A stretch of DNA of 64,000 nucleotides from Octopus vulgaris (Eukaryota): positions 14,074,001 to 14,138,000 of the forward strand of contig OX597839.1 in the NCBI GenBank assembly GCA_951406725.2, given 5' to 3'. Shown piece by piece: positions 22,538 to 26,620 of this stretch. The translations under genes and the position numbers were made by a program. The notes beneath the pieces are model-generated. The model had not been told where the DNA came from. It was given only the letters and a program-made list of their open reading frames with translations, and made no database searches. Every line of letters starts with the position of its first letter. Position 1 is the stretch's first letter.

Positions 22538-22718
22538 ATAGATCGTTAGCCACGACACATTTTTTTCTCTCCTTGTTTTTTTCTGTGTCCCTTTCTGTAG
22601 AAGAGCGTAGGCTCGAAACGTAAAAGACGTTTTCTATTTCTGAGCGTTATTCTAATACATCTGTTTGTTTTGTACACCACCTGTCTTCGTCTTTTGTTTT
22701 TTTTCGTAAACTTTCCCT
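22538..22718 (+). mobile_element. ~180-bp hammerhead-like mini element (family A); other copies at 2840-3030(-), 48415-48560(+), 61787-61985(-), partial 47390-47460(-)
   Basis: Repeated sequence embedded in microsatellites with CTTT-CTGTAGA-A-GAGC gtag GCTC-GAAA-CG-TA-AAAG (22591-22626). Confidence 0.7.
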
Positions 22719-25301
22719 ATATATATATATATATATATATATATATATATATATATATTTATATTTATATATATATATATATATATATGTATGTATGTAT
22801 GTATATATATATATATGTATATATATATATATATGTATGTATGTATATATATATATATATGTATATATATATATATATATATATACCTATACATATGTGG
22901 GTATACATATGTATACATTCATACACATAGATATAAAGATTCATATCTATATATGCATGTTTGCATGCATACAAATATTATATTTATATATATATATATA
23001 TATATATATATATGTATATGTATATATATATATATGTATATATATATATATATATTTAAGAAAAGGAGATGTCGAACACGAGTGGTGATATATAAAAAAG
23101 GAAATGAAGAAAATGCTGACAAATAATTGAAGTAATTTAAGTAATTTCACCTAATTAAATTACTTAAATTACTTCAATTATTTGTCAGCATTTTCTTCAT
23201 TTCCTTTTTATATATATATATATATATATATATATATATATATATATATATATATATGTGTGTGTGTGTGTGTGTGTGTGTGTGTGTGTGTATATATATG
23301 TATACATATACATATATATATATATATATATATATATTTACGGAGATGTACTCGCATAGCAAGTAATTTGATCTGAGATCGTGTGCTGAAACGAAAACAA
23401 TTGCAGCGTGGAAGGTGTTTATAAGCCATTTAAGAAACACAAATGTTGAAGTGAATCGAACGGCTTTTGTGTGTTTCTTAAATGGCTTATAAACACCTTC
23501 CACGCTGCAATTGTTATATATATATATATATATATATATATATATATAATATTTGTATGCATGCAAACATGCATATATAGATATGAATCTATATATCTAT
23601 GTGTGTATGAATGTATACATATATATACCCACATATGCGTAGATATATATATATATATATATATATATATATATATATATATATATATATATATATATAT
23701 ATATATATATATATATGTACATATATATATATATATATATATATATATATGTACATATATATATATACATACATATATTATATATATATATATATATATA
23801 TATATATACTCTCTCTCTTTTACTCTTTTACTTGTTTCAGTCATTTTGACTGCGGCCATGCTGGAGCACCGCCTTTAGTACTTATTCTATCGGTCTCTTT
23901 TGCCGAACCGCTAAGTAACGGGGACATAAGCACACCAGCATCGGTTGTCAAGCAATGCTAGGGGGACAAACACAAACACACACACACACATACATATATA
24001 TACATATATACGACAGGCTTCTTTCAGTTTCCGTCTACCAAATCCACTCACAAGGCATTGGTCGGCCCGGGGCTATGGCAAAAGACACTTGCCCAAGATG
24101 CCACGCAGTGGGACTGAACCCGGAACCATGTGGTTGGTTAGCAAGCTACTTACCACACAGCCACTCCTGGCTATAATATATATATATATATATATATATA
24201 TATTATAAATGGATGTGCGTGTGTGTCTGTGTTAGTGTATGTATACTCTTTTACTTGTTTCAGTCATTTGACTGCGGCCATGCTGGAGCACCGGCTTTAG
24301 TCGAACAAATCGCCCCCCCCCCCCCGCCAGAACTTATTCTTTGTAAGCCTAGTACTTATTCCATTGGTCATTTTTGCCGAACCTTCTAAGTTACGTTCTG
24401 AGTTCAAATTCCGCCGAGGTCGACTTTGCCTTTCATCCTTTCGGGGTCGATAAATTAAGTACCAGTTACGCACTGGGATCGATGTAATCGACTTAATCCG
24501 TTTGTCTGTCCTTGTTTGTCCCCTCTGTGTTTAGCCCCTTGTGGGTAGTAAAGAAATATATATATATATATATATATATATATATATATATATATATATA
24601 TATATATATACGTATATATAAGTACAAAATGGGACAAGAACGCAAAACATTCAAATAGACGATACAAAAACCTGGACGGGTCATTCGAAGCCTCTAATCT
24701 TCAGTCAAGAATCGGATCATCCTCGCAATTTCGGCTGATTAATCTTGAGATTGCTCCGATCTGGCCAGCCCCAAGGAAAAAGTAAGCTACGAGCATTAGA
24801 TTTCTTGGAAAAAGGATTGAATTTATACGAAACAAGGACAGAAAAACGGACAATGTTACACGAATATAAATACAAAGAACAAAAATATAATACGAATATA
24901 AATACAAAAAACAATAATAATAATAATAATAACAGGACATAACAACAGGCATCTTTCGACTTAGACGAATTGAACTCAACTGGCGTATTTGAAAAATAAT
25001 GACGGGCTTCTTTCAGTTTCCGTGTACCAAATCTATACAAAAGCTTGTGCGCTGTAAGTCCAATGCGAGAAAGCGAGAAAGATATTAGTCCCCAAATCAA
25101 ATCCTTACTGACATGTTATATCTTTTTAATGAAAATAAGTATCTAGTTGAGGACCCTTTGATATAAAACGTCCGACTGAAACCGTTTCCGGTCATCCCGC
25201 TCTTGCTTATCACTCGATGTCAATACTTCGAGGGAGGCGCTTTTTTTTCTGTTTTTTGTCGAATAAGCAGACGACTGAATAATCCAATAATGTAAACATA
25301 C

Positions 25302-25348
25302 CTCGTTAATTAGATGGCTGGAGTCTGGTGGAACAATAATCATATCAT
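25302..25348 (-). CDS. Candidate 47-nt internal exon ((D)DMIIVPPDSSHLINE)
   Basis: Acceptor ctatgtattcacgtag| and strong donor GAG|GTATGT bound an open frame in non-repetitive sequence. No recognisable homology. Confidence 0.3.
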
Positions 25349-26159
25349 CTACGTGAATACATAGATACAGGCATAAACGGGCGCGTATTTATACAAGTGT
25401 ATCAAGATATGCACACACGTACGTACGTATGTATGTATATGTGTGTGTGTATGTATGTATGTATGTATGTATGTATGTATGTATGTATGTATGTATGTAT
25501 GTATCTATCTATCTATCTATCTATCTATCTATCTATCTATCTATGGCTGTGTGATAAGTAACTTGCATACGAACCACATTGTTCCGGGTTCAGTCCCACT
25601 GCGTGGAACCTTGGGCAAGTGTCTTCTACTATAGCCTCGGGCCGACCAAAGCCTTGTGAGTGGATTTGGTAGACGGAAACTGAAAGAAGCCCGTCGTATA
25701 TATATGTATATATGTATATATATATATATATATATATATATATATATATATATATATGTGTGTGTGTGTGTGTGTGTGTGTGTGTGTGTGTGTGTGTGTG
25801 TTTGTGTGTCTGTGTTTGTCCCCTCCCCACGTCCCCGTAATATAGCGGTTCGGCAAAAGACACCGATAAAATAAGTACTAGGCTTGCAAAGAATAAGTCC
25901 TGGGGTCGATTTGCTCAACTAAAGGCGGAGCTCCAACATGGCCACAGTCACATGATTGAAACAAGTAAAAGGGTATATATGATGTAAAACATTAACCCTC
26001 CGTTAATGTTTACATCTTGACCCAAGACACAAACAGTAACCATATATATATTTTTTTACTTGTTTCAGTCATTTGACTGCGGCCATGCTGGAGCACAGCC
26101 TTTAGTCGAACAAATCGACCCCAGGACTTATTCTTTGTAAGCCGAGTACTTATTCTACA

Positions 26160-26620
26160 ATGTAACCACGTGTGTATTGTTGGCAATTTTCTTCCCCGTC
26201 TTCCCTTCCTTTGGACTTTCCCCTATTTCTGAAGAAGAGCTTTGCTCGTAACATTAAATCCTCTTTCTTCTCCTGAGCGTCTGATAATACAGTACTTGTA
26301 CCACGTCCTCGCGTTATTGTCTTTTCTTCTTTGTTTGGATTCACTATATATATATATACTTGTTCTGATACACCTCCGAATGGGGAACAATTCTTAAATA
26401 GATTTCCCCCAAAATTCCTGTCCTCGGAATCTACATGGCCCGAGGTAAAATGTGACCGCGTGTGTACCGTTGGCGATTATTTTTCCTCCACCTTCCCTTC
26501 TTTGGATCTTTCCTTTTCCTATGTTTATGACGAAGAGCACTGCTCGAAACGTTAAACCCTCCTTCTTTCCTTCTTTCCTGAGCGTCCAATAATACTATAT
26601 TTGTTCCACGTCCTCTCGTT
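26160..26620 (+). mobile_element. Two adjacent hammerhead-like mini elements (family B)
   Basis: Cores at 26225-26259 (ATTT-CTGAAGA-A-GAGC ttt GCTC-GTAA-CATT-AAAT) and 26523-26557 (GTTT-ATGACGA-A-GAGC act GCTC-GAAA-CGTT-AAAC); both share the downstream CTGAGCGT motif with family A. Confidence 0.65.

What the first reader, a model, noticed from the sequence alone, without database searches (positions are those of the whole stretch)
22591..26557. Tiny microsatellite-embedded elements with covarying hammerhead-like cores (retrozyme-like)
Seen: ~180-300-bp non-coding repeats share the layout stemI-CTGNNGA-A-GAGC(loop)GCTC-GAAA-CG-T(A/T)-stemI'. Stem I changes in compensatory fashion: CTTT/AAAG (22591), ATTT/AAAT (26225), GTTT/AAAC (26523). 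Further copies lie at 2840-3030, 48415-48560 and 61787-61985. Family A consistently replaces core A6 with T/C. Inference: these are solo pLTRs or non-autonomous ribozyme elements mobilised by PLE RT into (TA)n/(TG)n tracts, possibly with a variant core.
Basis: partly seen in the sequence, partly recalled or inferred. Interest (0 to 1): 0.72.

Follow-up and report, generated by a model that had tools for sequence, protein, structure and literature searches.

The report
Penelope element ends with U6 hammerhead
These tiny repeats are the isolated ends of Penelope-type jumping genes, a known kind that carries a small hammerhead-shaped RNA motif; the unusual part is that the largest family, including its youngest intact copies, has U in place of a normally fixed core A while keeping the rest of the motif unchanged, so it likely still cuts RNA slowly, which is untested.

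Summary
The repeats are real, but they are not a new retrozyme. They are the ~200-bp 3' ends (solo pseudo-LTRs) of two Neptune-type Penelope-like retrotransposon lineages. Longer copies run upstream into RT + GIY-YIG ORFs, and the motif is the published minimal type I hammerhead. Covariation is thin: one stem I pair. Two points go beyond the textbook. (1) In lineage A, core position 6 is U/C in 18,051 genomic matches against 226 with A. Young, about 99% identical elements with long open ORFs carry U6. Across five subfamily consensuses, 0 of 33 other hammerhead columns changed against 46 of 114 flank columns, and only the two free core positions (7 and 17) changed. (2) Of 60 copies picked by their 3' part alone, none starts at the predicted cut; 38 start at an initiator-like motif 94-111 nt upstream. 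This points to run-off copying of uncut RNA. Cleavage, start site and circles are untested; the RNA data were contigs only. The scan noted this U6 core before, in this genome and in shark-like genomes. Lunse 2017 on PLE hammerhead variants could not be read.

The parts
22535..22717 (+). Solo pLTR of Neptune-type PLE, lineage A (U6-A7 subfamily); 5' end 7 nt inside the initiator-like motif, 3' end joined to (TA)n
22591..22626 (+). Minimal type I hammerhead motif: stem I 22591-94/22623-26, core CUGUAGA 22595-601 (U6), extra A, stem II 22603-06/22611-14, GAAA, palindromic ACGU, predicted cut after 22622
   Evidence: sequence
26159..26345 (+). Solo pLTR, older lineage-B-like copy; hammerhead 26225-26259 with A6 but decayed GAAA and helix III
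26446..26660 (+). Solo pLTR, lineage B; hammerhead 26523-26557 (C3 changed in this copy; family consensus canonical CUGACGA); 3' end joined to (TA)n
2841..3030 (-). Solo pLTR, lineage A (U6-A7), between (TA)n tracts; core starts at 2962
48411..48560 (+). Old lineage A pLTR (U6-U7), 3' part replaced by a (TACA)n tract; core starts at 48482
61790..61990 (-). Older lineage A pLTR (C6-U7); core starts at 61908
47402..47460 (-). 3' fragment of a lineage A pLTR without the hammerhead

Best explanation
The repeats are solo 3' ends (pseudo-LTRs) of Neptune-type Penelope-like retrotransposons that carry a minimal hammerhead motif; they are likely made when the element's reverse transcriptase primes at a nicked (TA)n tract, starts inside an uncut transcript and runs off at its 5' start, and the U6 core of lineage A likely still works as a slow, dimer- or protein-assisted self-cleaving RNA. 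SHOWN: short copies are continuous with RT + GIY-YIG ORFs in longer copies; 3' ends are fixed and abut (TA)n; the element's own pLTR/5'-UTR junction reads as a TA patch; 5' ends pile up at an initiator-like motif, not at the cut site; U6 is in young masters with long open ORFs; the rest of the motif is invariant across subfamilies while positions 7 and 17 vary. INFERRED: the initiator-like motif is the transcription start; the UA patch in the RNA pairs with the (TA)n target; most templates of short copies are uncut; a minority of transcripts cut in both pLTRs and close into circles (or form multimers), which would template the longer-than-unit copies that regenerate the 5' pLTR.
For: PLE link. 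11 of 11 hand-picked family A loci (from 30) match a PLE ORF, 7 of 11 with the U6 motif about 0.9-1 kb downstream; 5 of 9 family B loci match a related ORF at about 52-59% identity. A protein search gave 150 scored matches; 24 of 30 fetched loci and 20 of 20 long-ORF loci carry the motif downstream, all with U6. The 1,079-aa ORF hits RVT_1 (E 1e-7) and GIY-YIG (E 0.007, under cut-off) and has DKG, a CX4CxxC linker and the CCHH pattern (motifs as in PMC8557442). 14 young copies are 98.8-99.8% identical to L175 over 2.8-2.9 kb. U6: 18,051 Y6 against 226 A6 matches; 125 flank-anchored copies give T118, C7, A0. Constraint: 0 of 33 hammerhead columns against 46 of 114 flank columns vary among 5 subfamily consensuses (Fisher p 8e-7); in the first 100 of 22,626 matches with the core left free, position 7 is A22/C22/G16/T40 and position 17 A79/T20/G1, other core positions 0-4% off apart from CpG sites (counted by eye). 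5' ends: 0 of 60 within 10 nt of the cut or below; 15 of 30 (A) and 23 of 30 (B) within -5..+15 of the initiator-like motif; p 8e-9 and 8e-22 against constant truncation after dropping the two window copies and one duplicate. 11 of 20 young loci are longer than one unit; the 10 with a visible 5' end stop 300-1,300 nt upstream of the initiator motif, none at it. Literature: internal RT initiation at AT-rich targets, uncut RNA as main substrate and protein-assisted cleavage in a lizard PLE (PMC11167929, parts 1-2 of 4 read); TSS inside the pLTR in Drosophila Penelope (PMC2377424, passages).
Against: No cleavage, start site or circle was observed. A6 substitutions strongly lower activity: A6C gave more than 10,000-fold less cleavage in 0.3 mM Mg than in Mn in one ribozyme (PMC7151607, parts 1-2 of 4 read). 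Hammerhead knock-outs did not reduce insertion in vitro (PMC11167929), so activity may be dispensable. Loop II is also invariant, which catalysis alone does not require; this fits protein binding. The canonical-A6 lineage B shows the same lack of cut-site ends, so 5' ends say nothing on U6 activity. The constraint test has ascertainment bias: copies were gathered with a fuzzy hammerhead anchor and 32 loci with exact patterns, the five consensuses are related, and two rest on 11-12 copies; reduce but do not remove this. Stem I (4 bp, three U-A) is weak, and MFE folds of single window copies mostly do not show the full hammerhead. The initiator consensus is recalled, not from a call. Lineage B has its own core-variant subfamily, U4C, in 10 of 38 descriptor hits, which hints at general relaxation. 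Neptune assignment rests on motifs, not on a tree.
Confidence: 0.68

Rival explanations
1. The U6 motif is catalytically dead and is kept as a folded RNA handle for the element's protein (or as part of the internal promoter); tandems arise by template jumps or read-through, without cleavage.
For: A6 changes cripple cleavage in Mg (PMC7151607; PMC3088659 passages). No copy starts at the cut site. Cleavage is not needed for insertion in vitro (PMC11167929). Loop II is invariant too. Lineage B tolerates U4C.
Against: The only motif positions that changed in the masters are 7 and 17, the two that hammerhead chemistry leaves free, and position 17 stayed A or U rather than G. A DNA promoter element gives no reason for that pattern.
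Confidence: 0.35
2. The short copies are an independent non-autonomous family (retrozyme or SINE-like) that amplifies from its own short masters using the PLE enzyme in trans.
For: Short copies far outnumber long ones and have defined ends. A few short tandems exist (L017, L021). A solo pLTR that keeps its start motif could be transcribed into the flanking (TA)n.
Against: Consensus of 63 copies from loci found with the short element equals that of 32 copies from loci found with the upstream 3' UTR: no diagnostic substitution in family A; in family B three frequency differences, none fixed. Copies are mostly monomers with a minimal, not canonical, hammerhead.
Confidence: 0.12
3. Ordinary random 5' truncation of PLE insertions, with a pause or template switch at a fixed RNA structure rather than a transcript start.
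For: 5' truncation is typical of PLEs; 8 of 30 family A ends lie 16-60 nt inside the motif and 12 of 60 copies extend further upstream.
Against: Constant truncation predicts about 12 and 17 ends between +61 and the query start; 0 were seen. The pile-up falls on an initiator-like motif in two lineages with different sequence there.
Confidence: 0.15

Closest known systems
Minimal type I hammerheads (min-HHR) in pLTRs of metazoan PLEs (Cervera and De la Pena 2014, PMC4209133; parts 1-2 of 4 read)
   Same: [quoted passage not shown]
   Different: Lineage A has U6 (or C6) fixed; the core variant named in the parts read is U3-A8. Stem II is 4 bp, not 7-8.
Neptune-type C-terminal EN+ PLEs (Craig et al. 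2021, PMC8557442; section 11 and passages read)
   Same: Single ORF with DKG, RT, CX2-5CxxC linker, CCHH GIY-YIG; partial tandems; microsatellite targeting.
   Different: No description of these families was found; they may be in Repbase or Dfam, which were not available.
PAc Poseidon element of Anolis (Frangieh et al. 2024, PMC11167929)
   Same: Internal RT initiation, AT-rich target, uncut RNA as template, no ends at the cut site.
   Different: Here the junction is a TA patch homologous to the (TA)n target; in PAc the start site is not homologous. PAc has a canonical core.
Metazoan non-LTR retrozymes (PMC7229834, passages; Li, Clavereau, Pollet 2026, 10.64898/2026.07.22.740005, parts 1-3 of 5 read)
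   Same: Short non-coding repeats with type I hammerheads, derived from PLE pLTRs.
   Different: Retrozymes are tandem arrays, mostly with canonical hammerheads, and make small circles; these are dispersed monomers identical to the ends of autonomous elements.
Natural A6C hammerhead of phage Bcep176 (PMC3088659 passages; PMC7151607)
   Same: Pyrimidine at core position 6.
   Different: A single phage example with C6, slow in Mg and active in Mn; here U6 in more than 18,000 genomic copies of an animal retroelement.

Membership tests
Penelope-like element pLTR | [quoted passage not shown] | tested here: met
Penelope-like element pLTR | Direct repeat at both ends through partial tandem arrangement | tested here: met
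   11 of 20 young loci longer than one unit; L182 holds three motifs about 4.47 kb apart
Penelope-like element pLTR | Internal promoter and transcription start in the pLTR | tested here: inconclusive
   Initiator-like motif at the 5'-end pile-up; contigs cannot show starts
Neptune clade | CX2-5CxxC linker plus CCHH endonuclease and DKG motif | tested here: met
   Read in the L175 translation against PMC8557442
Neptune clade | RT phylogeny with reference elements (separates it from Nematis) | not tested
   No named reference set was in hand; relatives are 40-57% identical and nearly all unnamed
Minimal type I hammerhead | Extra nucleotide after A9, G10.1-C11.1, GAAA, palindromic helix III, NUH site | tested here: met
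Minimal type I hammerhead | Core CUGANGA with A6 (lineage B) | tested here: met
   Consensus CUGACGA; a U4C subfamily also exists
Minimal type I hammerhead | Core CUGANGA with A6 (lineage A) | tested here: not met
   18,051 Y6 against 226 A6; 0 of 125 with A6
Minimal type I hammerhead | Stem covariation | tested here: inconclusive
   1 of 9 pairs changes on both sides
Minimal type I hammerhead | Self-cleavage as a dimer | not testable with these tools
   Needs a bench assay or raw RNA ends
Non-LTR retrozyme | Tandem arrays of units with hammerheads | tested here: not met
   Mostly monomers; short tandems in few loci such as L017 and L021 of 30
Non-LTR retrozyme | Family independent of an autonomous element's own end | tested here: not met
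   Same consensus as 3'-UTR-linked copies
Non-LTR retrozyme | Small circular RNAs | not testable with these tools
   Only assembled contigs were served

The most novel reading that the evidence does not exclude
U6 is a working natural hammerhead core under purifying selection, rescued by the element's protein, by dimer formation or by Mn2+, and a slow ribozyme splits the RNA into two fates: uncut capped RNA that yields tens of thousands of solo pLTRs and cut, ligated circles that yield full tandems. If the U6 cores noted in shark-like genomes arose separately, this is convergence, and searches that demand A6 miss a large class of animal ribozymes.
Probability: 0.35. Interest if true: 0.7.

Novelty: new variant of a known kind. 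Interest (0 to 1): 0.45.

Why it matters
What PLE hammerheads do is an open question: they are near-universal in these elements, cleave poorly in vitro and were dispensable for insertion in the one reconstituted system. This genome offers a natural pair, a U6 lineage and a sister A6 lineage, with young near-identical copies of the U6 element, so the question can be tested directly. The pile-up of 5' ends at an initiator-like motif also gives a simple, testable origin for solo pLTRs, which earlier work ascribed to truncation, recombination or deletion.

Tried and rejected
Rfam scan of the window: the 150 listed matches of 511 were nearly all microsatellite-driven miRNA hits below gathering score, and none was a hammerhead family; 361 lower rows were not shown. 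The window's own PLE (5700-11475) was tested as the partner and rejected: it is a different, Hydra-like element with a different hammerhead, and its proteins gave only weak matches in the family loci. RNA: no RNA holder listed on record; runs were guessed RNA and contigs only. Contigs from four studies cover the young element's ORF and cross the pLTR/5'-UTR junction, but show no GT-AG joint, start or end, and no listed contig bridges the cut site with 31 letters on both sides; no evidence either way. The idea that the U6-A7-G8 after a pyrimidine tract is a splice acceptor was not supported: no joint was seen, and the young subfamily lacks that AG. An ancestral A6 subfamily within lineage A was not found: A6 copies are 1.2% and 12 inspected ones mostly resemble the flanks of U6 subfamilies, as expected for back-mutation. 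Other registers that would restore CUGANGA break stem II (by inspection). Pfam gave no hit on ORF fragments. A larger unselected sample near the window could not be fetched, so older subfamilies rest on few copies. Lunse, Weinberg and Breaker 2017 is not held; I recall that it reports core variants in PLE hammerheads, so U6 may be in print there. Searches listed no paper on a natural U6 hammerhead (listings only). bioRxiv supplements are closed, and the supplements of PMC4209133 and PMC8557442, which list motifs, were not opened.

Full report
Observation. The six repeats lie at the stated places and have the stated layout. The genome is 2.8 Gb in 227 contigs; I take it to be octopus-like from its size and repeats, which is an inference. 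A descriptor for the minimal hammerhead found 19 hits in the window plus 80 evenly spaced 10-kb stretches and 0 in the reversed sequence. Only the outer pair of stem I changes on both sides among nine aligned copies, so covariation is weak evidence by itself.

What the repeats are. Copies share a fixed 3' end followed by (TA)n and differ at the 5' end. Searching with the upstream extension of rare longer copies led through a pyrimidine-rich or CA-rich 3' UTR into RT and GIY-YIG sequence. Of 11 family A loci picked from 30 for ORF-like content, all match a PLE ORF and 7 show the U6 motif downstream on the same strand; 5 of 9 picked family B loci match a related ORF at about 52-59% identity, 3 of them with the motif downstream. 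A protein search then revealed a young subfamily: 24 of 30 fetched loci and all 20 long-ORF loci carry the motif, always with U6. L175 has a 1,079-aa ORF with RVT_1 and a weak GIY-YIG hit, DKG, a CX4CxxC linker and the CCHH pattern, the marks of Neptune-type elements in PMC8557442. Fourteen copies are 98.8-99.8% identical to it. L182 is a head-to-tail tandem of 4.47-kb units. Short and 3'-UTR-linked family A copies share one consensus. The repeats are therefore solo pLTRs, and the motif matches the min-HHR of PMC4209133 feature by feature.

The U6 core. With the rest of the motif fixed, position 6 is U or C in 18,051 matches and A in 226. In 125 copies found by the downstream flank alone it is T118, C7, A0 (6 further hits lacked the motif, none starting at the cut). 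Five subfamily clusters, 4-14% diverged from their own consensus, differ at 46 of 114 flank columns but at 0 of 33 hammerhead columns other than 6, 7 and 17; positions 7 and 17 vary (three small clusters of 1-2 copies were left out). With the core left free, the first 100 matches show all four bases at position 7 and A or U at 17, and only mutational noise elsewhere (counted by eye); with stem II left free the same holds apart from two copies of one minor variant. Positions 7 and 17 are the free positions of the core as given in PMC7151607. I read this as selection on a hammerhead fold after A6 was lost. The test is biased by how copies were gathered, and an invariant loop II fits protein binding as well. 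Pyrimidine at 6 is known to slow cleavage in Mg2+ while sparing it in Mn2+ for C6 (PMC7151607, PMC3088659); I found no data for U6.

How the short copies likely arise. Sixty copies were picked by sequence 3' of the cut site only. All contain the whole motif; none starts at the cut; 15 of 30 and 23 of 30 start within -5 to +15 nt of an initiator-like motif 94 and 111 nt upstream of it, far more than constant truncation predicts. The element's pLTR/5'-UTR junction is itself a short TA patch. The simplest model is that the endonuclease nicks (TA)n, the nick pairs with the UA patch inside the transcript, and RT runs off at the capped end. This agrees with internal initiation and uncut templates in the lizard element PAc (PMC11167929) and with a start site inside the pLTR in Drosophila Penelope (PMC2377424). 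In contrast, the 10 longer-than-unit young copies with a visible 5' end all pass this motif by 300-1,300 nt, so they need circular or multimeric templates or template jumps. Circles would need cleavage; the other routes would not. Lineage B, with A6, shows the same short-copy pattern, so the pattern does not depend on U6.

RNA evidence. Only assembled contigs of runs guessed to be RNA were available. They cover the young element but cannot show starts, ends or circles, and no splice joint was seen. Nothing is concluded from them.

Comparison and novelty. The class is known: PLE pLTR hammerheads, solo pLTRs and their kinship with retrozymes are published (PMC4209133, PMC3846280 passages, PMC7229834, bioRxiv 2026.07.22.740005). 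The retrozyme tests fail. A natural U6 core and the start-site run-off pattern did not appear in my searches, but Lunse 2017 could not be read and supplements were not opened. The scan's own unchecked notes report the U6 core in this genome and in shark-like genomes; I tested it here independently for this genome only. A bamboo shark protein is 55% identical to the lineage A protein, about the same as lineage B, so single origin against convergence is open.

Verdict. New variant of a known kind; interest 0.45. Identity as PLE ends is near certain, run-off from the start site about 0.65, residual cleavage by the U6 core about 0.5.

Noticed in passing
window 5700-11475 (+): A Hydra-like PLE: ORF pieces 6092-7030, 7000-7617, 7569-8252 (two frameshifts; DKT, RWR and CxCX5C motifs), near-identical pLTRs at 5700-5992 and 11182-11475 (291 matches over about 293 nt), each with a hammerhead that has a canonical core and a real helix III with a palindromic loop (about 5926-5977). 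A 2.9-kb microsatellite-like stretch lies between ORF and 3' pLTR.
   Followed up: partly
window 26760-26835 (+), related at 34920: A repeat in which GAAAC precedes CUGAUGA, followed by a hairpin and GUGUA; it resembles the rearranged hammerheads that earlier scan notes report for this genome. Not analysed.
   Followed up: no
L207, L208, L228, L263, L266 and others: A lineage B subfamily with U4C in the core (10 of 38 descriptor hits), a second fixed core variant.
   Followed up: partly
L235:8155, L235:7192, L241:4090: A third min-HHR family with canonical CUGAUGA and a 7-bp stem II.
   Followed up: no
window 35731-35952 (-): Exon starting MGCFSSK and ending in a globin-like A/B helix; by recall it resembles N-acylated globin X or neuroglobin-like genes. 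No Pfam hit for the 73-aa piece.
   Followed up: partly
window 23059-23206 and 23339-23516: Two long inverted-repeat structures between (TA)n tracts, possibly head-to-head ends of other elements.
   Followed up: no
L176, L184, L174: Young PLE copies that begin at or within 30 nt of unit position 1, i.e. almost exactly one unit long, as one full turn of a circle or TA microhomology would give.
   Followed up: no
L014, L033, L040, L213: Tail-to-tail or head-to-head inverted pLTR pairs, typical PLE inverted arrangements.
   Followed up: no
window 23820-24170, 24240-24360, 25545-25970, 26050-26158, 62140-62300: Abundant SINE-like repeats interleaved with the pLTR copies; recalled as typical of octopus genomes, not tested.
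   Followed up: no
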